Of a stretch of 64,000 nt of DNA, positions 23,014-37,508 are shown piece after piece. Source of the stretch: Escherichia phage ECO07P1; the sequence record OP172784; one strand, written 5' to 3'. How positions within the stretch are numbered: the stretch's first letter is position 1; each line of letters starts with the position of its first letter. The translations under genes were made by a program, and so were the position numbers. Below the pieces are notes generated by a model, which saw nothing but the letters and a program-made list of their open reading frames with translations, did not search any database and was not told where the DNA came from.

Positions 23014-23086
23014 TGGGAATTAGCCAAGTTGGTAAGGCACTGGATTTTGATTCCAGGATGCAAAGGTTCGAGTCCTTTATTCCCAG
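23014..23086 (+). tRNA. tRNA-Gln (anticodon UUG)
   Basis: Manual cloverleaf: acceptor tgggaat/attccca, anticodon loop ttTTGat, T-loop GTTCGAG. Confidence 0.85.
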
Positions 23087-23087
23087 C

Positions 23088-23174
23088 GCGAGAATGGTCA
23101 AATTGGTAAAGGCACAGCACTTAAAATGCTGCGGAATGATTTCCTTGTGGGTTCGAGTCCCACTTCTCGCACCA
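23088..23174 (+). tRNA. tRNA-Leu (anticodon UAA)
   Basis: Acceptor gcgagaa/ttctcgc, anticodon loop ctTAAaa, long variable arm, encoded CCA. Confidence 0.85.
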
Positions 23175-23179
23175 AATTT

Positions 23180-23253
<74 letters not shown>

Positions 23254-23263
23254 ATTTAATTTA

Positions 23264-23337
23264 CTCCGTGTAGCTCAGTTTGGTAGAGCGTCTGCTTTGG
23301 GAGCAGAATGTCGCAGGTTCAAATCCTGCCGCGGAGA
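23264..23337 (+). tRNA. tRNA-Pro (anticodon UGG)
   Basis: Anticodon stem tctgc/gcaga, loop ttTGGga; T-loop GTTCAAA. Confidence 0.8.
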
Positions 23338-23339
23338 CT

Positions 23340-23429
23340 GGAGGCGTGGCAGAGTGGTTTAATGCACCGGTCTTGAAAACCGGCAGTCGCTCCGGCGACT
23401 CATAGGTTCAAATCCTATCGCCTCCGCCA
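23340..23429 (+). tRNA. tRNA-Ser (anticodon UGA)
   Basis: Acceptor ggaggcg/cgcctcc, loop ctTGAaa, long variable arm, CCA. Confidence 0.85.
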
Positions 23430-23434
23430 GTTTT

Positions 23435-23510
23435 GCTGATTTAGCTTAGTAGGTAGAGCAACTCACTTGTAATGAGAAGGTCGGCGGTTCGATTCCGTCA
23501 ATCAGCACCA
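23435..23510 (+). tRNA. tRNA-Thr (anticodon UGU)
   Basis: Acceptor gctgatt/aatcagc, loop ctTGTaa, T-loop GTTCGAT, CCA. Confidence 0.8.
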
Positions 23511-23511
23511 A

Positions 23512-23586
23512 GGCCCTGTAGCTGGAAGGTTCAAGCAAGCGACTCATAATCGCCAGATGGTGGTTCAATTCCACCCAGGGCCACCA
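23512..23586 (+). tRNA. tRNA with CAU anticodon (Ile2-type or Met; T4 tRNA-Ile has CAU)
   Basis: Acceptor ggccctg/cagggcc, loop ctCATaa, T-arm ggtgg-ttcaatt-ccacc, CCA. Confidence 0.75.
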
Positions 23587-23599
23587 AATTAAGAATTAA

Positions 23600-23686
23600 G
23601 GGGAGTTATCCCGTAGAGGTAGCGGTGTGGACTGTAAATCCATTGTCATTGCGACTCGGGTGGTTCGACTCCATCACTCCCCACCA
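23600..23686 (+). tRNA. tRNA-Tyr (anticodon GUA)
   Basis: Acceptor ggggagt/actcccc, anticodon stem gtgga/tccat, loop ctGTAaa, long variable arm, CCA. Confidence 0.8.
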
Positions 23687-23690
23687 ATTT

Positions 23691-23765
23691 GGATGTGTAG
23701 CTCAATGGCAGAGCGATCGCCTGTTAAGCGATTGGTTATAGGTTCGAATCCTATCACGTCCGCCA
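23691..23765 (+). tRNA. tRNA-Asn (anticodon GUU)
   Basis: Anticodon stem atcgc/gcgat, loop ctGTTaa, T-arm atagg-ttcgaat-cctat, CCA. Confidence 0.8.
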
Positions 23766-23769
23766 AATC

Positions 23770-23845
23770 CGAGGCATAGCTCAGAAGGAAGAGCAAGGAC
23801 CTTCTAAGTCCTAGGTCGTAGGTTCGATCCCTACTGCCTCGACCA
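23770..23845 (+). tRNA. tRNA-Arg (anticodon UCU)
   Basis: Acceptor cgaggca/tgcctcg, anticodon stem aggac/gtcct, loop ctTCTaa, CCA. Confidence 0.85.
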
Positions 23846-32788: not shown

Positions 32789-33009
32789 TGGCAAAGATAA
32801 TTATTGAAGGTTCTAAAGATGTGCTAAATGCTTTCGCCGAATGGTTTAGTAATTCAGGCGAACAGCAATTTAATGAAGCGTGGAATATGGGTGATATTGA
32901 TGGAATTTATCCTACGACAGAAATTTCTGTTCAAGGATATGGAATTCATGAGCCTATTCGTTTAGTTGAATATGATTTAGGTACTGGTGAGGAAGTAAAA
33001 TATGATTGA
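32788..33009 (+). CDS. hypothetical protein
   Basis: 73 aa; overlapping start/stop with neighbours. Confidence 0.55.
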   Translation: MAKIIIEGSKDVLNAFAEWFSNSGEQQFNEAWNMGDIDGIYPTTEISVQGYGIHEPIRLVEYDLGTGEEVKYD

Positions 33010-33268
33010 AGATATTAAGGGTTATAAGCCACATACTGAAGAGAAAATCGGTAAAGTGAATGCTATTAAAGACGCTGAAGTTCGTTTAGGACTTATCTTT
33101 GGTGCTTTATACGATGAATTCTGGGAAGCACTAGATAATTGTGAAGACTGTGAATTCGCGAAGAATTATGCTGAAAGCCTTGATCAGTTAACTATTGCTA
33201 AAACTAAACTCAAAGAAGCCAGTATGTGGGCTTGTCGTGCTGTGTTCCAACCAGAGGAAAAATACTAA
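33002..33268 (+). CDS. hypothetical small helical protein
   Basis: 88 aa; stop overlaps next start (TAATG). Confidence 0.55.
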
Positions 33269-33546
33269 TGGCTCAATTAAGCGCAGGGTTTGGTTATGAG
33301 TATTATACTGCCCCTCGTCGTGTATCTGTTGCTCCTAAGAAAATTCAAAGTCTTGATGACTTCCAGGAAGTAGTTCGTAACGCTTTCCAGGACTATGCAC
33401 GTTATCTTAAAGAAGATTCACAGGACTGTCTCGAAGAAGATGAAATTGCTTACTATGAGCAGCGTCTTGAACAGCTTAAAAACCTACATGAGGTTCGTGC
33501 AGAAGTTACAAAGTCTATGAATAAATTGATTAGATTTAAAGAATAA
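33268..33546 (+). CDS. hypothetical small helical protein
   Basis: 92 aa from MAQLSAGF; track ORF begins upstream. Confidence 0.55.
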
Positions 33547-33548
33547 CT

Positions 33549-33579
33549 GTTTACTTTTCCTCTTGACTGTGGTATAATT
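33549..33579 (+). promoter_or_regulatory. early promoter for regB
   Basis: GTTTAC, 18 bp, tGGTATAAT; SD gaggag. Confidence 0.6.
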
Positions 33580-33605
33580 TTTCTATCAGTTAAGAGGAGA
33601 ATAAC

Positions 33606-34067
33606 ATGACTATCAACACAGAAGTTTTTATCCGTCGAAATAAGCTCCGTCGTCACTTTGAGTCGGAGTTTCGTCAAATTAACAATGAGATTCGTGAGGC
33701 ATCAAAAGCAACAGGAGTCTCATCGTTTCATCTAAAATATTCTCAGCATCTTCTTGATCGTGCAATTCAGCGGGAGATTGATGAGACATATGTTTTTGAA
33801 TTATTCCACAAAATAAAAGACCATGTTTTAGAAGTTAATGAATTCCTGAGTATGCCTCCACGCCCTGATATTGACGAAGATTTTATTGATGGTGTTGAAT
33901 ATCGTCCTGGACGTTTAGAAATCACAGATGGAAATCTTTGGCTTGGATTTACAGTTTGTAAACCTAATGCGAAGTTCAAAGACCCGTCGCTTCAATGTAG
34001 GATGGCAATTATCAACAGTCGTCGTTTACCAGGAAAGGCTTCTAAAGCAGTAATTAAAACTCAATGA
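33606..34067 (+). CDS. regB: site-specific RNA endonuclease RegB
   Basis: 153 aa; size and synteny as T4 RegB. Confidence 0.8.
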   Translation: MTINTEVFIRRNKLRRHFESEFRQINNEIREASKATGVSSFHLKYSQHLLDRAIQREIDETYVFELFHKIKDHVLEVNEFLSMPPRPDIDEDFIDGVEYRPGRLEITDGNLWLGFTVCKPNAKFKDPSLQCRMAIINSRRLPGKASKAVIKTQ

Positions 34068-34074
34068 GGTAAGC

Positions 34075-34620
34075 ATGAGAAAAGCACTACTCGCTGGTCT
34101 ATTGGCCATTTCTATGATGGCACATAGCTCCGAGCATACTTTCAGTAATGTCCAACTCGATAACATGCGTTACGCGTATCAATTCGGGGAACAATTTTCT
34201 AAGGATGGAAAATATAAAACACATAAAAATATCCACAAGAGCGGATTAGGTCATATAATGGCTGCTATTTTATGGCAAGAAAGCTCTGCCGGAGTTAATT
34301 TAAAATCTAAACCAAAGCATCATGCCTATGGAATGTTCCAAAATTATTTGCCGACCATGCGAGCAAGAGTTAAGGAACTTGGTTATAATATGACCGATGC
34401 CGAAATAAAAAGAATGTTGAATAAACGGTCCAATTCAGCTTCCTGGGCGTACATTGAACTTTCTTATTGGTTAAATATACATAAGGGTGATATAAGAAAG
34501 GCAATATCCTCTTATAATTCGGGATGGAATGTTAAAGCAGGTTCTAAATATGCTTCTGAAGTCCTAGAAAAGGCTAACTACCTTAAAAATAATAAACTGT
34601 TGGAAATAGTAAATGACTAA
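34075..34620 (+). CDS. secreted lytic transglycosylase (SLT)-like protein
   Basis: 181 aa; signal peptide MRKALLAGLLAISMMAHS; SLT-like motifs WQESSAG and SYNSG. Confidence 0.65.
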   Translation: MRKALLAGLLAISMMAHSSEHTFSNVQLDNMRYAYQFGEQFSKDGKYKTHKNIHKSGLGHIMAAILWQESSAGVNLKSKPKHHAYGMFQNYLPTMRARVKELGYNMTDAEIKRMLNKRSNSASWAYIELSYWLNIHKGDIRKAISSYNSGWNVKAGSKYASEVLEKANYLKNNKLLEIVND

Positions 34621-34954
34621 AATTTTGGTTTTATGTGTAGGATTAATTTCATTTTCTGCGTTAGCAAATACATCATACACTGAAATTAGAGAGTATGCAA
34701 ACCGTACTGCCGCGGATTATTGTGGGAAAAATAAAGCATGCCAAGCTGAATTTGCACAGAAATTAATATATGCATATAAAGACGGAGAAAGAGATAAATC
34801 AAGCAGATATAAAAATGATACTTTATTAAAACGATATGCTAAAAAGTGGAATACTTTAGAATGTTCAGTTGCGGAGGAGAAAGATAAAGCCGCTTGTCAT
34901 TCAATGGTTGACCGTTTGGTAGATTCTTATAATCGAGGATTGAGTACTAGATGA
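34613..34954 (+). CDS. small secreted protein (at the position of T4 vs)
   Basis: 113 aa with signal-peptide-like N-terminus; several Cys. Confidence 0.55.
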   Translation: MTKILVLCVGLISFSALANTSYTEIREYANRTAADYCGKNKACQAEFAQKLIYAYKDGERDKSSRYKNDTLLKRYAKKWNTLECSVAEEKDKAACHSMVDRLVDSYNRGLSTR

Positions 34955-35430
34955 TTGTAAAATATATCAAGGGCGATATTGTCGCCCTATTTCTTCAAGG
35001 AAATATTATTGCGCACGGGTGCAATTGTTTTCATACTATGGGTTCAGGTGTAGCGGGTCAATTAGCAAGGGCCTATCCTAAAATTTTAGAAATAGATAAA
35101 ACCACTACCGAGTACGGTTCTCGTGATAAATTAGGCGATATGTCTATTGTTTTTAAGCATAGTCCTACGGGATTTGGTATATGCTATAACCTGTATACGC
35201 AATACGAACCGGGTCCTAATCTTGATTATGGTGCTTTAGTAAATTGCATGATAGAATTAAATCTACAGGCAGAAACCCTTTTGTTTAAACCAGTAATTTA
35301 CATTCCACGCATAGGTTGCGGTATTGCTGGAGGCGATTGGGATAAGGTTTCTAAATTAATCGACATGTTTACTCCTGATATTGATTTAATAGTGGTGGAT
35401 TATGAAAGCACATTACCCGCATCCGTTTGA
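34951..35430 (+). CDS. macro-domain (ADP-ribose binding/processing) protein
   Basis: 159 aa; KGDIV...AHGCNCFHTMGSGVAGQL and IPRIGCGIAGG resemble macro-domain motifs. Confidence 0.65.
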   Translation: MIVKYIKGDIVALFLQGNIIAHGCNCFHTMGSGVAGQLARAYPKILEIDKTTTEYGSRDKLGDMSIVFKHSPTGFGICYNLYTQYEPGPNLDYGALVNCMIELNLQAETLLFKPVIYIPRIGCGIAGGDWDKVSKLIDMFTPDIDLIVVDYESTLPASV

Positions 35431-35614
35431 CCCTAAAAATAAAGCGGAAATTATTCGTCAATGGGAACGCATTTGCCGTACTAAATGCCCAATTAATAGT
35501 CCACATGATGTAGATAAAGACTATATTGGAACATTCGTTGAATATACCTTTATTGATAAGAAAGGTCGTAAACAACATGTAGAAGAATATTGCTTAAAGG
35601 TTACATGGTTATGA
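35402..35614 (+). CDS. hypothetical protein
   Basis: 70-aa ORF, Cys-containing. Confidence 0.5.
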   Translation: MKAHYPHPFDPKNKAEIIRQWERICRTKCPINSPHDVDKDYIGTFVEYTFIDKKGRKQHVEEYCLKVTWL

Positions 35615-35796
35615 GTCTGAGTAAAGAACAAAAAGACAGACTGTTTTCTCTTATTCACGAAGTTATGGATAAAAATAGTGAATTGGAAAAAGTTTGCGAT
35701 GAATGCGGTCCTTTTAATACCGACGAATACGAAGAACTGTGTAAAGATTTCGACGATAAAGAACAAGAACTTATTGATTATATAAATTCCTTATGA
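35611..35796 (+). CDS. small helical protein, EQ-family paralog
   Basis: 61 aa from MSLSKEQKDRLFSLIHEV; ATGA overlap. Confidence 0.5.
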   Translation: MSLSKEQKDRLFSLIHEVMDKNSELEKVCDECGPFNTDEYEELCKDFDDKEQELIDYINSL

Positions 35797-35981
35797 TTAC
35801 TCGCGAACAAAAGAATGAAATACGATTTTTAATCAGCGAAATTACTAGTTTAGAACGAGATTTATCTTTTGAATTGGCTTCGGATTATGGAGATGCTGAA
35901 ACATACTACGAATTAGTAAAATCTATCGATAAAGCTGAAAATGATTTAGAAACATATTTAGAAAATTTAACTAAGGACTAA
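35793..35981 (+). CDS. small helical protein, EQ-family paralog
   Basis: 62 aa, MITREQKNEIRFLISEI; ATGA overlap. Confidence 0.5.
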   Translation: MITREQKNEIRFLISEITSLERDLSFELASDYGDAETYYELVKSIDKAENDLETYLENLTKD

Positions 35982-35982
35982 G

Positions 35983-36564
35983 ATGGCGAGTTTAATTTTT
36001 ACTTATGCAGCAATGAATGCTGGAAAATCTGCTTCTCTTTTGACTGCTGCGCATAATTATAAAGAACGTGGAATGAGTGTATTAGTTCTTAAGCCTGCTA
36101 TTGATACTCGCGATTCTGTCTGTGAAGTCGTTTCTCGCATTGGAATTAAGCAGGAAGCGAATATTATTACGGATGATATGGATATTTTTGAGTTCTATAA
36201 ATGGGCTGAAGCACAAAAAGATATTCATTGCGTATTTGTAGATGAAGCCCAATTTTTAAAAACTGAACAGGTGCATCAATTAAGTCGAATTGTTGATACA
36301 TATAATGTTCCTGTTATGGCTTATGGTCTAAGGACTGATTTCGCTGGAAAATTATTTGAAGGTTCTAAGGAACTTTTGGCGATTGCAGATAAACTTATTG
36401 AACTGAAGGCAGTTTGTCATTGCGGTAAAAAAGCGATTATGACAGCTCGATTAATGGAAGATGGAACACCAGTTAAAGAAGGTAATCAAATCTGTATTGG
36501 TGATGAAATTTATGTTTCTTTGTGTAGAAAACATTGGAACGAATTAACTAAAAAGCTCGGTTAG
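35983..36564 (+). CDS. tk: thymidine kinase
   Basis: 193 aa; P-loop AMNAGKSASLL; C-terminal Zn-binding Cys pairs. Confidence 0.95.
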   Translation: MASLIFTYAAMNAGKSASLLTAAHNYKERGMSVLVLKPAIDTRDSVCEVVSRIGIKQEANIITDDMDIFEFYKWAEAQKDIHCVFVDEAQFLKTEQVHQLSRIVDTYNVPVMAYGLRTDFAGKLFEGSKELLAIADKLIELKAVCHCGKKAIMTARLMEDGTPVKEGNQICIGDEIYVSLCRKHWNELTKKLG

Positions 36565-36573
36565 TGCAAAAGT

Positions 36574-36581
36574 TATAAATA
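36574..36581 (+). promoter_or_regulatory. candidate late promoter TATAAATA upstream of rI.-1/rI
   Basis: Exact TATAAATA about 25 nt upstream of the 36607 ATG. Confidence 0.4.
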
Positions 36582-36606
36582 GGTTTATCTAACTAAAGGG
36601 GTATAT

Positions 36607-36819
36607 ATGCTACAATTAACTGAAAAGCAACTTCGCAATCTTACTGTTCTTCAATTAGATGAAATTCGTAGGGAAGTTGGAAATATCATTTCAGCTTTGC
36701 GTCGAGAAGTATCGCTCAACCAATCTCCGGCAGACTATACTAGATTGCGAAATTTTGAAAAATACCTTGATAAAGTTAAGGCCGTACATCGGCATAAAGT
36801 AAATACAGGACAAAAATGA
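36607..36819 (+). CDS. rI.-1: hypothetical protein at the rI.-1 position
   Basis: 70-aa ORF directly upstream of rI. Confidence 0.6.
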
Positions 36820-36831
36820 TAGGAGGCCTTT

Positions 36832-37125
36832 ATGGCCTTAAAAGCAGCGGCACTATTCGCCATGCTAGGATTAGCGTTTGTTTTATCTCCGCCGATTGAA
36901 GCGAATGTCGATCCTCATTTTGATAAATTTATGGAATCTGGTATTAGACATGTTTATACGCTTTTTGAAAATAAAAGCGTAGAATCATCTAAACAGTTCT
37001 ATAGTTTCATGCGAACGACCTATAAAAATGACCCGTGTTCTTCTGATTTTGAATGTATAGAACGAGGCGCGGAGATGGCACAATCATACGCTAGAATTAT
37101 GAACATTAAATTGGAGACTGAATGA
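36832..37125 (+). CDS. rI: lysis inhibition regulator rI (periplasmic antiholin)
   Basis: 97 aa; MALKAAALFAMLGLAFVLSPPIEANVDPHFDKF matches remembered T4 RI. Confidence 0.9.
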   Translation: MALKAAALFAMLGLAFVLSPPIEANVDPHFDKFMESGIRHVYTLFENKSVESSKQFYSFMRTTYKNDPCSSDFECIERGAEMAQSYARIMNIKLETE

Positions 37126-37508
37126 AATTCAGCGACTTTTCACAAAGTGGAAAACCTTCAAAGGCAGATGAATACTTAGGTTTATTAATGGCTGCGCAAG
37201 CTTATTTTCATTCTGCGCATTTTGAAACTAAAAGTTATGCTAGACACAAAGCATACGATTTTATTTTTTCCGAGTTGCCAGATTTGATTGATAAATTTGG
37301 TGAGCAATATTTGGGGTATTCTGGTAGAAAATACACACCTTCAATTCCAGATGCTAGTAAACTTCCTACCGACACAATTAAAATGATTGATCGTATACTA
37401 GACCAATCTAACAGCATTTACAAAGAAATGCCTCCAGCCATTCAAAGCACGATAGATGATATTACTGGAATGTTTTATCAAAGTAAGTATCTTCTTTCCC
37501 TCGAATAA
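37122..37508 (+). CDS. rI.1: hypothetical protein at the rI.1 position
   Basis: 128 aa; ATGA overlap with rI. Confidence 0.65.

What the first reader, a model, noticed from the sequence alone, without database searches (positions are those of the whole stretch)
34951..35430. Macro-domain protein next to tk
Motifs KGDIV...AHGCNCFHTMGSGVAGQL and IPRIGCGIAGG resemble the ADP-ribose-binding pocket of macro domains. In a phage this could reverse ADP-ribosylation, either host defence marks or the phage's own Alt/Mod modifications, or degrade ADP-ribose-derived immune signals.
Basis: partly seen in the sequence, partly recalled or inferred. Interest (0 to 1): 0.5.

Follow-up and report, generated by a model that had tools for sequence, protein, structure and literature searches.

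The report
T4-type phage macrodomain Tk.4 (AdfM)
This is the T4-like phage gene tk.4, a small macrodomain enzyme recently shown in phage T4 to protect the phage from the bacterial DarTG2 defence that ADP-ribosylates DNA; it is a known gene, present here as a divergent allele that has been swapped between phage genera.

Summary

The window is a Tequatrovirus. The gene sits where T4 has tk.4, between vs and tk.3; tk lies about 550 bp downstream. A 2025 preprint renamed T4 tk.4 adfM: it was the only transposon-screen hit under DarTG2, and a clean knockout sensitised T4. No evidence here supports the Alt/Mod or immune-signal options.

Details added here:
- Position 84, where DarG and TARG1 have the catalytic Lys, is Gln, as in SCO6735, which removes ADP-ribose from thymidine in DNA.
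- The protein is only 58% identical to T4 Tk.4, although flanking proteins are 95-99% identical.
- Its closest relative outside the genus (92%) is in a Dhakavirus whose flanks are 46-69% identical, so the gene moves as a cassette.
- A conserved hairpin covers codons 7-13.

The function of this allele is inferred, not tested. Verdict: already known, low to moderate interest.

The parts
34951..35430 (+). tk.4 / adfM orthologue: 159-aa stand-alone macrodomain protein
35023..35025 (+). Codon for Asn25, the conserved macrodomain Asn, equivalent to SCO6735 Asn27
   Evidence: Invariant in the 64-sequence family alignment. Mapped to SCO6735 N27 through BT1257. PMC9411070 reports that mutating this Asn abolished SCO6735 activity and greatly reduced DarG turnover; PhiKZ AdfM N23A has reduced activity.
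35200..35202 (+). Codon for Gln84, at the position of the catalytic Lys of TARG1 (K84) and DarG (K80) and of Gln85 in SCO6735
   Evidence: Profile alignment puts NLYTQ opposite TARG1 LITKK and BT1257 NMIGQ. BT1257 Q aligns with SCO6735 chain residue 105, which is native Q85. Q85A abolishes SCO6735 activity (PMC9411070). Q84 is invariant in the family.
35311..35340 (+). Phosphate-binding loop IGCGIAGGDW (residues 121-130); Gly124 is equivalent to SCO6735 Gly128
   Evidence: G122, G124 and W130 are invariant. Aligned with TARG1, BT1257 and SCO6735 IGCGL..W. SCO6735 G128E reduces activity.
34986..35405 (+). Divergent core of the allele (cassette) relative to T4
   Evidence: In 60-nt bins, identity to T4 is 100% up to 34985, 40-80% for 34986-35405 and at least 93% from 35466. 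Flanking proteins are 95-99% identical against 57% for Tk.4. The same allele, at 92% protein identity, is in Dhakavirus IME281, whose flanks are 46-69% identical.
34970..34988 (+). Conserved 8-bp hairpin AGGGCGAT-ATT-GTCGCCCT inside codons 7-13, followed by a T-rich tract
   Evidence: Found by the terminator-like scan and present in both the MFE and centroid folds. Identical in T4, T2, Mosigvirus and Dhakavirus; compensatory variants occur in other phages. Stem synonymous sites are frozen while loop and post-stem third positions vary. The whole-set covariation test is only modest.
34613..34954 (+). vs (valyl-tRNA synthetase modifier) orthologue; its stop overlaps the tk.4 start (ATGA)
   Evidence: ORF. 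95% identical to T4 Vs. Annotated as vs in T4 and T2.
35402..35614 (+). tk.3 (DUF7202); its first 29 nt overlap the 3' tail of this tk.4 allele
   Evidence: Pfam DUF7202 E=1.9e-38, matched over 1-70 of 70 positions. In T4 the overlap is only 4 nt. Tk.4 residues 156-159 have pLDDT below 50.
   Evidence: Pfam TK E=6.3e-61. 99% identical to T4 Tk.

Best explanation
The ORF is the orthologue of phage T4 tk.4, recently renamed adfM (anti-DarT factor, macrodomain). It is a stand-alone ALC1-like macrodomain from the TARG1 / DarG / SCO6735 class. It lies in what the T4 record calls the early region, just downstream of vs, whose stop codon overlaps its start. Its most likely job is to act as an orphan antitoxin mimic. 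When a host DarTG2 system ADP-ribosylates thymidines in single-stranded phage DNA, the macrodomain binds the ADP-ribose and hydrolyses the thymidine-ADP-ribose bond, so replication can continue. The active site is the Gln type (Asn25, Gln84, Gly124) found in SCO6735, not the Lys type of DarG and TARG1. Shown here: macrodomain membership, predicted fold, orthology by synteny, conservation of the residues needed in SCO6735, and allele mosaicism. Taken from papers: the T4 knockout phenotype under DarTG2, and the SCO6735, DarG and PhiKZ AdfM biochemistry. Inferred: that this 58%-identical allele has the same activity and role.
For: - Orthology: synteny regB-vs.1-vs-tk.4-tk.3-tk.2-tk.1-tk matches T4 and T2, with 58% identity and no gaps to T4 Tk.4.
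- Experiment on the orthologue: T4 tk.4 was the only significant HIDEN-SEQ hit under DarTG2 and its knockout sensitises T4. T2 and T4 lacking adfN, and T4 also lacking adfA, stay DarTG2-resistant, which pointed to another factor.
- Active site: Asn25, Gln84 and Gly124 correspond to the SCO6735 residues N27, Q85 and G128, whose mutation abolishes or reduces removal of ADP-ribose from thymidine in DNA. All three are invariant in 64 family members.
- Precedent: an independent phage macrodomain, PhiKZ gp104, removes DarT2 marks from DNA in vitro.
Against: - No enzymatic assay exists for T4 Tk.4; the preprint says hydrolysis 'seems likely'.
- This allele is only 58% identical to the tested protein and has itself not been tested.
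- The catalytic Lys of DarG and TARG1 is absent.
- The SCO6735 lysines that position DNA (K34, K89) and its longer mobile loop are not conserved here.
- The same class includes Poa1p, an ADP-ribose-1''-phosphate phosphatase, and TARG1, which acts on proteins. Other or additional substrates are therefore not excluded.
- SCO6735, DarG and TARG1 also inhibit DarT by direct binding, so part of the protection might not be hydrolytic.
Confidence: 0.78

Rival explanations
1. It is an ADP-ribose-1''-phosphate (Appr1p) phosphatase or general ADP-ribose-metabolite hydrolase, as the long-standing 'A1pp phosphatase' annotation says. It would clean up by-products of RNA repair or NAD metabolism rather than countering a defence system.
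Against: The annotation derives from a domain name (smart00506 A1pp), not from an assay. The only phenotype reported for tk.4 is specific to DarTG2. The His is shared by the whole class, including TARG1 and BT1257, so it does not discriminate. From my own knowledge: T4 RNA repair (Pnk and Rnl1) does not generate Appr1p.
Confidence: 0.08
2. It reverses protein or RNA ADP-ribosylation. The marks could be those written by the phage's own Alt, ModA and ModB enzymes, or host marks such as those of the CmdTAC mRNA ADP-ribosyltransferase.
For: TARG1 and SCO6735, both in the same class, also act on ADP-ribosylated proteins.
Against: Alt and Mod modify arginine, a linkage removed by ARH/DraG-type enzymes rather than macrodomains (my own knowledge, not tested here). 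DarG, the antitoxin of the system T4 Tk.4 counters, acts only on DNA, unlike SCO6735. CmdTAC defends robustly against T-even phages although they carry tk.4 (abstract of PMC11618068), so tk.4 does not neutralise it. No alt or mod gene lies in the tk.4 neighbourhood (33.2-37.1 kb) that I examined.
Confidence: 0.06
3. It degrades or sequesters ADP-ribose-derived immune signals, such as the cyclic ADPR isomers or His-ADPR of Thoeris, or otherwise acts on small molecules of NAD-based immunity.
Confidence: 0.04
4. It protects mainly by binding and inhibiting DarT2 directly ('interaction-inhibition') rather than by hydrolysis. Allele diversity would then track different DarT2 variants.
For: Catalytically dead SCO6735, DarG and TARG1 still inhibit DarT in vitro. 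The alleles differ on the β-hairpin (residues 63-79), the 105-115 segment and the C-terminal helix and strand, while the ADP-ribose pocket is conserved. The allele is exchanged between genera as a cassette.
Against: The strict invariance of the catalytic-site residues N25, Q84 and G124 across the family argues that catalysis is selected. The protein lacks the C-terminal DarT-binding domain of DarG: it is 159 aa against a 338-position NCBIfam model, and scores 27.7 bits against a cut-off of 250.
Confidence: 0.04

Closest known systems
Phage T4 Tk.4 = AdfM (anti-DarT factor macrodomain), bioRxiv 10.1101/2025.11.20.689424
   Same: Same locus (vs | tk.4 | tk.3 ... tk) and nearly the same length (159 against 155 aa). 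58% identity without gaps. Identical N-terminus and ADP-ribose loops (residues 1-14, 20-38, 80-84). Same Gln-type active site.
   Different: 42% of residues differ, concentrated in residues 51-79, 105-115 and 126-155. There is a four-residue longer C-terminal tail that overlaps tk.3 by 29 nt. This allele has not been tested against DarTG2.
Streptomyces coelicolor SCO6735 (PDB 5E3B) and Bacteroides BT1257 (2FG1/2AFC), Gln-type ALC1-like macrodomains
   Different: Only about 26-29% identity. Tk.4 lacks the six-residue-longer mobile loop and the Lys34 and Lys89 DNA-positioning residues of SCO6735. The context is cellular rather than phage.
DarG antitoxin of DarTG2 (Mtb 5M3I, T. aquaticus 5M31, Thermosipho 7OMU)
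   Different: There is no C-terminal DarT-binding domain and no adjacent darT. Gln replaces the catalytic Lys80. The score is far below the NCBIfam DarG cut-off (27.7 against 250 bits). It is an orphan mimic, not a DarG.
PhiKZ gp104 AdfM (Cell Rep 2026, PMC13309987)
   Same: A phage-encoded stand-alone macrodomain that counters DarTG2. Removal of DarT2 marks from DNA was shown in vitro, and a conserved Asn is needed.
   Different: Only distantly related (33.6 bits to the Tk.4 family profile). It carries a PTK motif that I read as the Lys-type site (the automatic alignment was ambiguous). It is imported into the phage nucleus. It looks like an independent acquisition that shares the name.
Human TARG1/OARD1 (4J5S)
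   Same: Top Foldseek hit (E=1e-9, TM 0.72-0.84). TARG1 also cleaves thymidine-linked ADP-ribose on DNA.
   Different: The Lys84/Asp125 dyad of TARG1 is Gln84/Ala126 here.

Membership tests
Macro domain (Pfam PF01661) | Score above the curated gathering threshold | tested here: met
   32 bits against a cut-off of 22, E=1.3e-7, profile positions 2-117 of 118.
Macro domain (Pfam PF01661) | Three-layer alpha/beta macrodomain fold | tested here: met
ALC1-like class (TARG1 / DarG / SCO6735 / Poa1p) | Closest structural and sequence neighbours belong to this class rather than to MacroD-like, PARG-like or viral macrodomains | tested here: met
DarG antitoxin (NCBIfam NF048014, DarTG2) | Full-length match above the equivalog cut-off, including the C-terminal DarT-binding domain | tested here: not met
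   27.7 bits against a cut-off of 250. Only profile positions 2-142 of 338 are matched, and the protein is 159 aa.
DarG antitoxin (NCBIfam NF048014, DarTG2) | Encoded next to a darT toxin gene | tested here: not met
   The neighbours are vs and tk.3 (DUF7202). There is no ART-like ORF in the neighbourhood.
DarG antitoxin (NCBIfam NF048014, DarTG2) | Catalytic lysine (K80 in T. aquaticus and Mtb DarG; K84 in TARG1) | tested here: not met
   Gln84 occupies the column aligned with TARG1 K84. PMC9411070 equates TARG1 K84, DarG K80 and SCO6735 Q85.
SCO6735/BT1257 subclass (Gln-type DNA ADP-ribosyl-thymidine hydrolases) | Gln at the catalytic position, plus the conserved Asn27 and Gly128 equivalents | tested here: met
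   Q84, N25 and G124 map onto SCO6735 Q85, N27 and G128 through BT1257. All three are invariant in alignment A1.
SCO6735/BT1257 subclass (Gln-type DNA ADP-ribosyl-thymidine hydrolases) | Elongated mobile loop with extra lysines (stated to be characteristic of the subclass in PMC9411070) | tested here: not met
   BT1257 has six extra residues after the Gln relative to the Tk.4 profile. There is no Lys in Tk.4 residues 85-92.
AdfM of T-even phages (T4 Tk.4) | Orthology: same genomic position and significant full-length similarity | tested here: met
   Synteny with T4 and T2. BLASTP 58% identity, E=1e-70, 155 of 155 residues aligned.
AdfM of T-even phages (T4 Tk.4) | Loss of the gene sensitises the phage to DarTG2 | not testable with these tools
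   Shown only for T4. Testing this allele needs phage genetics.
AdfM of T-even phages (T4 Tk.4) | Removes ADP-ribose from DarT2-modified DNA | not testable with these tools
   Shown in vitro for PhiKZ gp104 and for SCO6735, DarG and TARG1, but not yet for any Tk.4.
Poa1p-type ADP-ribose-1''-phosphate phosphatase | Residues probed in Poa1p (His23, Ser30, Phe152) | tested here: inconclusive
   His22 aligns with Poa1p His23, and Thr29 appears to align with Ser30. The His is common to the whole class, and the C-terminal part aligns poorly.
MacroD/YmdB-type O-acetyl-ADP-ribose deacetylase | Match to the equivalog models, with closest structural neighbours of MacroD type | tested here: not met

The most novel reading that the evidence does not exclude
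tk.4/adfM is not one gene with drift but a set of deeply diverged alleles that are swapped as gene-sized cassettes between Tevenvirinae genera. The window's allele is 92% identical to that of a Dhakavirus whose flanks are only 46-69% identical, yet only 57-58% identical to the allele of T4, whose flanks are 95-99% identical. The most novel reading that my evidence leaves open has two parts. First, the alleles may differ in function, for example in which DarT2 variants they neutralise or bind, or in evading a host factor that senses the macrodomain. Second, the nucleotide-conserved hairpin at codons 7-13 may be both a regulatory element (attenuator or mRNA stabiliser) and the 5' crossover point of the cassette.
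Probability: 0.2. Interest if true: 0.5.

Novelty: already known. Interest (0 to 1): 0.25.

Why it matters
The finding recovers from raw sequence a phage counter-defence gene whose role was assigned only in late 2025. This supports the idea that stand-alone macrodomains in phages are antitoxin mimics against DNA ADP-ribosylation. It adds three modest points:
- T-even AdfM has the SCO6735-like Gln active site, not the DarG Lys site. That matters for mechanism and for any inhibitor or mutant design.
- The window's allele is the more common one in sequenced Tequatrovirus records (312 records at 90% or more, against 224 for the T4 type). The experimentally studied T4 protein therefore does not represent most of these phages.
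- The allele moves between genera as a cassette. I read this as consistent with an arms-race gene.

None of this changes the basic picture.

Tried and rejected
- A direct MAFFT alignment of the window protein with T4 Tk.4, BT1257, TARG1 and PhiKZ gp104 misaligned the central region. I replaced it with hmmalign to the family profile and with HMMER alignments against PDB chains.
- Even with hmmalign, the PhiKZ gp104 PTK motif landed two columns away from Gln84. I therefore do not claim a residue-level equivalence for that protein.
- The sigma-70 promoter scan found no more sites than shuffled sequence (15 against 16.5 ± 3.8), so I make no promoter claim from it. The 1986 T4 record annotates a potential promoter and RBS just upstream of the T4 orthologue, but I did not test this.
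- Rfam had no match within 33000-37500 at E of 1 or less, so the hairpin belongs to no described RNA family.
- The covariation test of the hairpin over all 35 codon-aligned homologues was only modest: 73.6% of cells paired, no shuffle reached the observed pairing, and 10 of 500 reached the covariation score. About half of the homologues lack the hairpin. I therefore report it as a feature of one subset, not of the family.
- I considered filing the protein as a DarG and rejected that. It fails the length, domain, neighbour and catalytic-Lys criteria.
- I did not use the large representative-protein search or a second structure prediction, because the answer did not depend on them.

Full report
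**Observation.** Window 34951..35430 (+) is an ATG-initiated ORF of 159 aa. Its start overlaps the stop of the upstream ORF by ATGA. The 1986 T4 record annotates a potential ribosome-binding site at the corresponding place; in the window this is an AGGA 12-15 nt upstream of the start. The gene is near tk but not adjacent to it. Three small ORFs lie between: 35402-35614 (DUF7202), 35590-35796 and 35793-35981 (both DUF7438). tk itself is at 35983-36564.

**Is it a macrodomain?** Yes.
- Pfam Macro (PF01661) scores 32 bits against a curated cut-off of 22, over almost the whole profile.
- PHROG 335 matches at E=1e-71.
- Single-sequence search of PDB chains finds BT1257, Poa1p, SCO6735, M. tuberculosis DarG and TARG1.
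- A profile of 64 homologues raises these hits to E=3e-19 down to 2e-6, and every hit is a macrodomain of the ALC1-like class.
- AlphaFold2 with that alignment gives pLDDT 93.6 and pTM 0.88, with only the last four residues disordered.
- Foldseek against the PDB puts TARG1, Poa1p, BT1257, DarG and SCO6735 on top.

**What genome and what gene?** The 3.7 kb around the ORF is 96-98.6% identical to hundreds of Tequatrovirus (T4-like) records. The gene order regB, vs.1 (SLT domain), vs, this ORF, tk.3, tk.2, tk.1, tk, rI.1, rI is that of T4 and T2, where the gene in this position is tk.4. That gene is annotated 'phosphatase; contains A1pp phosphatase motif'. The A1pp/macro match of tk.4 orthologues was already noted in 2006 (PMC1524935). 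GenBank records annotate the gene variously as phosphatase, macro domain protein, RNase III inhibitor or hypothetical.

**What is known about its function?**
- The HIDEN-SEQ preprint of November 2025 (10.1101/2025.11.20.689424) infected a DarTG2-expressing host with a T4 transposon library. It found tk.4 as the single significant hit.
- A clean knockout sensitised T4 to DarTG2. The authors named the gene adfM and proposed that it removes ADP-ribose from DNA.
- Earlier work had shown that T2 and T4 lacking adfN, and T4 also lacking adfA, remain DarTG2-resistant. That predicted a further factor (PMC11825919).
- DarT2 ADP-ribosylates thymidine in ssDNA at TNTC motifs.
- Independently, PhiKZ gp104, a distantly related phage macrodomain also named AdfM, removes DarT2 marks from an oligonucleotide in vitro. 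A conserved Asn is needed for full activity (PMC13309987).
- SCO6735, TARG1 and DarG all remove thymidine-linked ADP-ribose (PMC9411070).

**Active site.**
- In the profile alignments the invariant Tk.4 motif N80-L-Y-T-Q84 lies opposite TARG1 Y-L-I-T-K84 and BT1257 N-M-I-G-Q.
- BT1257 aligns without ambiguity to SCO6735. Counting the tagged 5E3B chain gives N27, K34, Q85 and G128 exactly as numbered in the paper.
- Hence window Asn25 corresponds to SCO6735 Asn27, Gln84 to Gln85 (the position of DarG K80 and TARG1 K84), and Gly124 to Gly128.
- In SCO6735, Q85A and the Asn27 mutant abolish activity and G128E reduces it.
- All three residues are invariant in the 64-member family alignment, as are H22, G23, C26, G33, P119, G122 and W130.
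- TARG1 Asp125 corresponds to Ala126.
- Tk.4 is therefore a Gln-type enzyme like SCO6735 and BT1257. It lacks their six-residue-longer mobile loop and the SCO6735 lysines K34 and K89.
- T4 Tk.4 shares all of these features.

**Why it is not a DarG.** It scores 27.7 bits against a cut-off of 250 on the NCBIfam DarG equivalog and covers only the macrodomain third of the model. The PADLOC DarG model hits it in the same partial way. It has no C-terminal DarT-binding domain and no neighbouring toxin gene, and Gln replaces the catalytic Lys. It works like an orphan antitoxin macrodomain, but it is not a member of the DarG family.

**A divergent, mobile allele.**
- The protein is only 58% identical to T4 Tk.4, although the surrounding DNA is about 93% identical to T4.
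- In 60-nt bins, identity to T4 is 100% up to 34985, falls to 40-80% between 34986 and 35405, and returns to 93% or more from 35466.
- Between the window and T4, RegB, Vs.1, Vs and Tk are 95-99% identical, but Tk.4 is 57% (global alignment).
- T4 Tk.4 is 85% identical to the Mosigvirus Bas47 protein. The window protein is 71% identical to that of Dhakavirus VR5.
- Dhakavirus IME281 carries the window-type allele at 92% protein identity (84-90% at nucleotide level). Its RegB, Vs and Tk are only 46-69% identical to the window's.
- IME281 and VR5, both Dhakavirus, are 95-97% identical in those flanking proteins but 72% in Tk.4.
- So alleles of tk.4 are exchanged between genera as gene-sized cassettes.
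- In the phage collection the window-type allele (90% identity or more) is in 312 records and the T4-type in 224.
- The differences between the two alleles lie mainly in residues 51-79, 105-115 and 126-155. The ADP-ribose loops (20-38, 80-84, 119-125) are conserved.
- This allele runs four codons longer than T4's and overlaps tk.3 by 29 nt instead of 4.

**Rival functions.**
- The 'A1pp phosphatase' label comes from a domain name and has no assay behind it. Poa1p is a close structural relative, so that activity is not excluded.
- Reversal of Alt/Mod marks is unlikely, because those are arginine-linked (my own knowledge, not tested here).
- CmdTAC still defends robustly against T-even phages that carry tk.4.
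- Direct inhibition of DarT2 by binding is possible as a secondary mode, because dead SCO6735, DarG and TARG1 mutants do this in vitro.

**Side observation: a hairpin in the coding sequence.**
- Codons 7-13 (KGDIVAL) form an 8-bp hairpin, AGGGCGAT-ATT-GTCGCCCT, followed by a T-rich tract (34970-34988).
- It is identical in Tequatrovirus, Mosigvirus and Dhakavirus alleles, although neighbouring codons differ.
- Among 13 distinct sequences encoding KGDIVAL, the third positions of the Gly8, Val11 and Ala12 codons never vary. The loop codon is ATT, ATC or ATA, and the first base after the stem takes all four values.
- Variants keep eight pairs through changes on both sides. AAGGCGAC...GTCGCCTT occurs in L029 and L036. 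AGGGAGAT...ATCTCCCT occurs in phage A6-1 and in L049.
- About half of the more distant homologues lack the hairpin, and the whole-set covariation statistic is modest. No Rfam family matches.
- Divergence between alleles begins immediately 3' of this hairpin.
- Its function is unknown. An attenuator, an mRNA-stabilising element or a recombination joint are all guesses.

**Verdict.** The gene is the known tk.4/adfM, here as an untested but common allele. Novelty: already known. Interest: low to moderate.

Noticed in passing
window 34970-34988 (+): There is an 8-bp GC-rich hairpin (AGGGCGAT-ATT-GTCGCCCT) plus a T-rich tail inside codons 7-13 of tk.4. It is nucleotide-identical across Tequatrovirus, Mosigvirus and Dhakavirus. 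Stem synonymous sites are frozen while loop and post-stem sites vary, and compensatory stem variants occur in L029, L036, L007 (phage A6-1) and L049. It is absent from about half of the more distant homologues, and Rfam has no match.
   Followed up: partly
window 34986-35405; L087 (Dhakavirus IME281) 1801-2280; L004 (Dhakavirus VR5) 1501-1956: tk.4 behaves as a gene-sized cassette exchanged between Tevenvirinae genera. The window allele is 92% identical to IME281 (flanks 46-69%) and 57% to T4 (flanks 95-99%). IME281 and VR5 share 95-97% identical flanks but differ in Tk.4 (72%).
   Followed up: yes
window 35402-35430: The 3' end of this tk.4 allele overlaps the start of tk.3 by 29 nt in a different frame; T4 has a 4-nt ATGA overlap. 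The extra C-terminal residues (156-159) are predicted to be disordered.
   Followed up: partly
window 23014-23845 (+): The window has a cluster of ten tRNA genes: Gln, Leu, Gly, Pro, Ser, Thr, Met (CAT), Tyr, Asn and Arg. From memory, T4 has eight, so Tyr and Asn would be extra; I did not check this against T4.
   Followed up: no
L001 (phage T2) 3668-4050: T2 carries two additional small ORFs (T2_115 and T2_114) between tk.3 and tk.2. They are absent from T4 and from the window, which is further evidence that the tk.4-tk interval is plastic.
   Followed up: no
protein P0002: Some GenBank annotations (Shigella phages SHFML-11 and SHFML-26) call a 130-aa version of this protein that starts at Met30. 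That version would remove strand 1 and the invariant His22 and Asn25, so it is probably a start-codon miscall.
   Followed up: no
hit H74 (Vibrio phage VF16, LC811684.1, 19927-20340): In this Vibrio phage a Tk.4 homologue lies under or next to a gene annotated ribose-phosphate pyrophosphokinase. This could be a link to NAD/ADP-ribose salvage rather than to DarTG counter-defence in that lineage.
   Followed up: no
L004 (Dhakavirus VR5) 2135-2872: A putative intron-like homing endonuclease gene sits between tk.2 and tk in VR5. Mobile endonucleases in this interval could drive the local gene conversion seen at tk.4.
   Followed up: no
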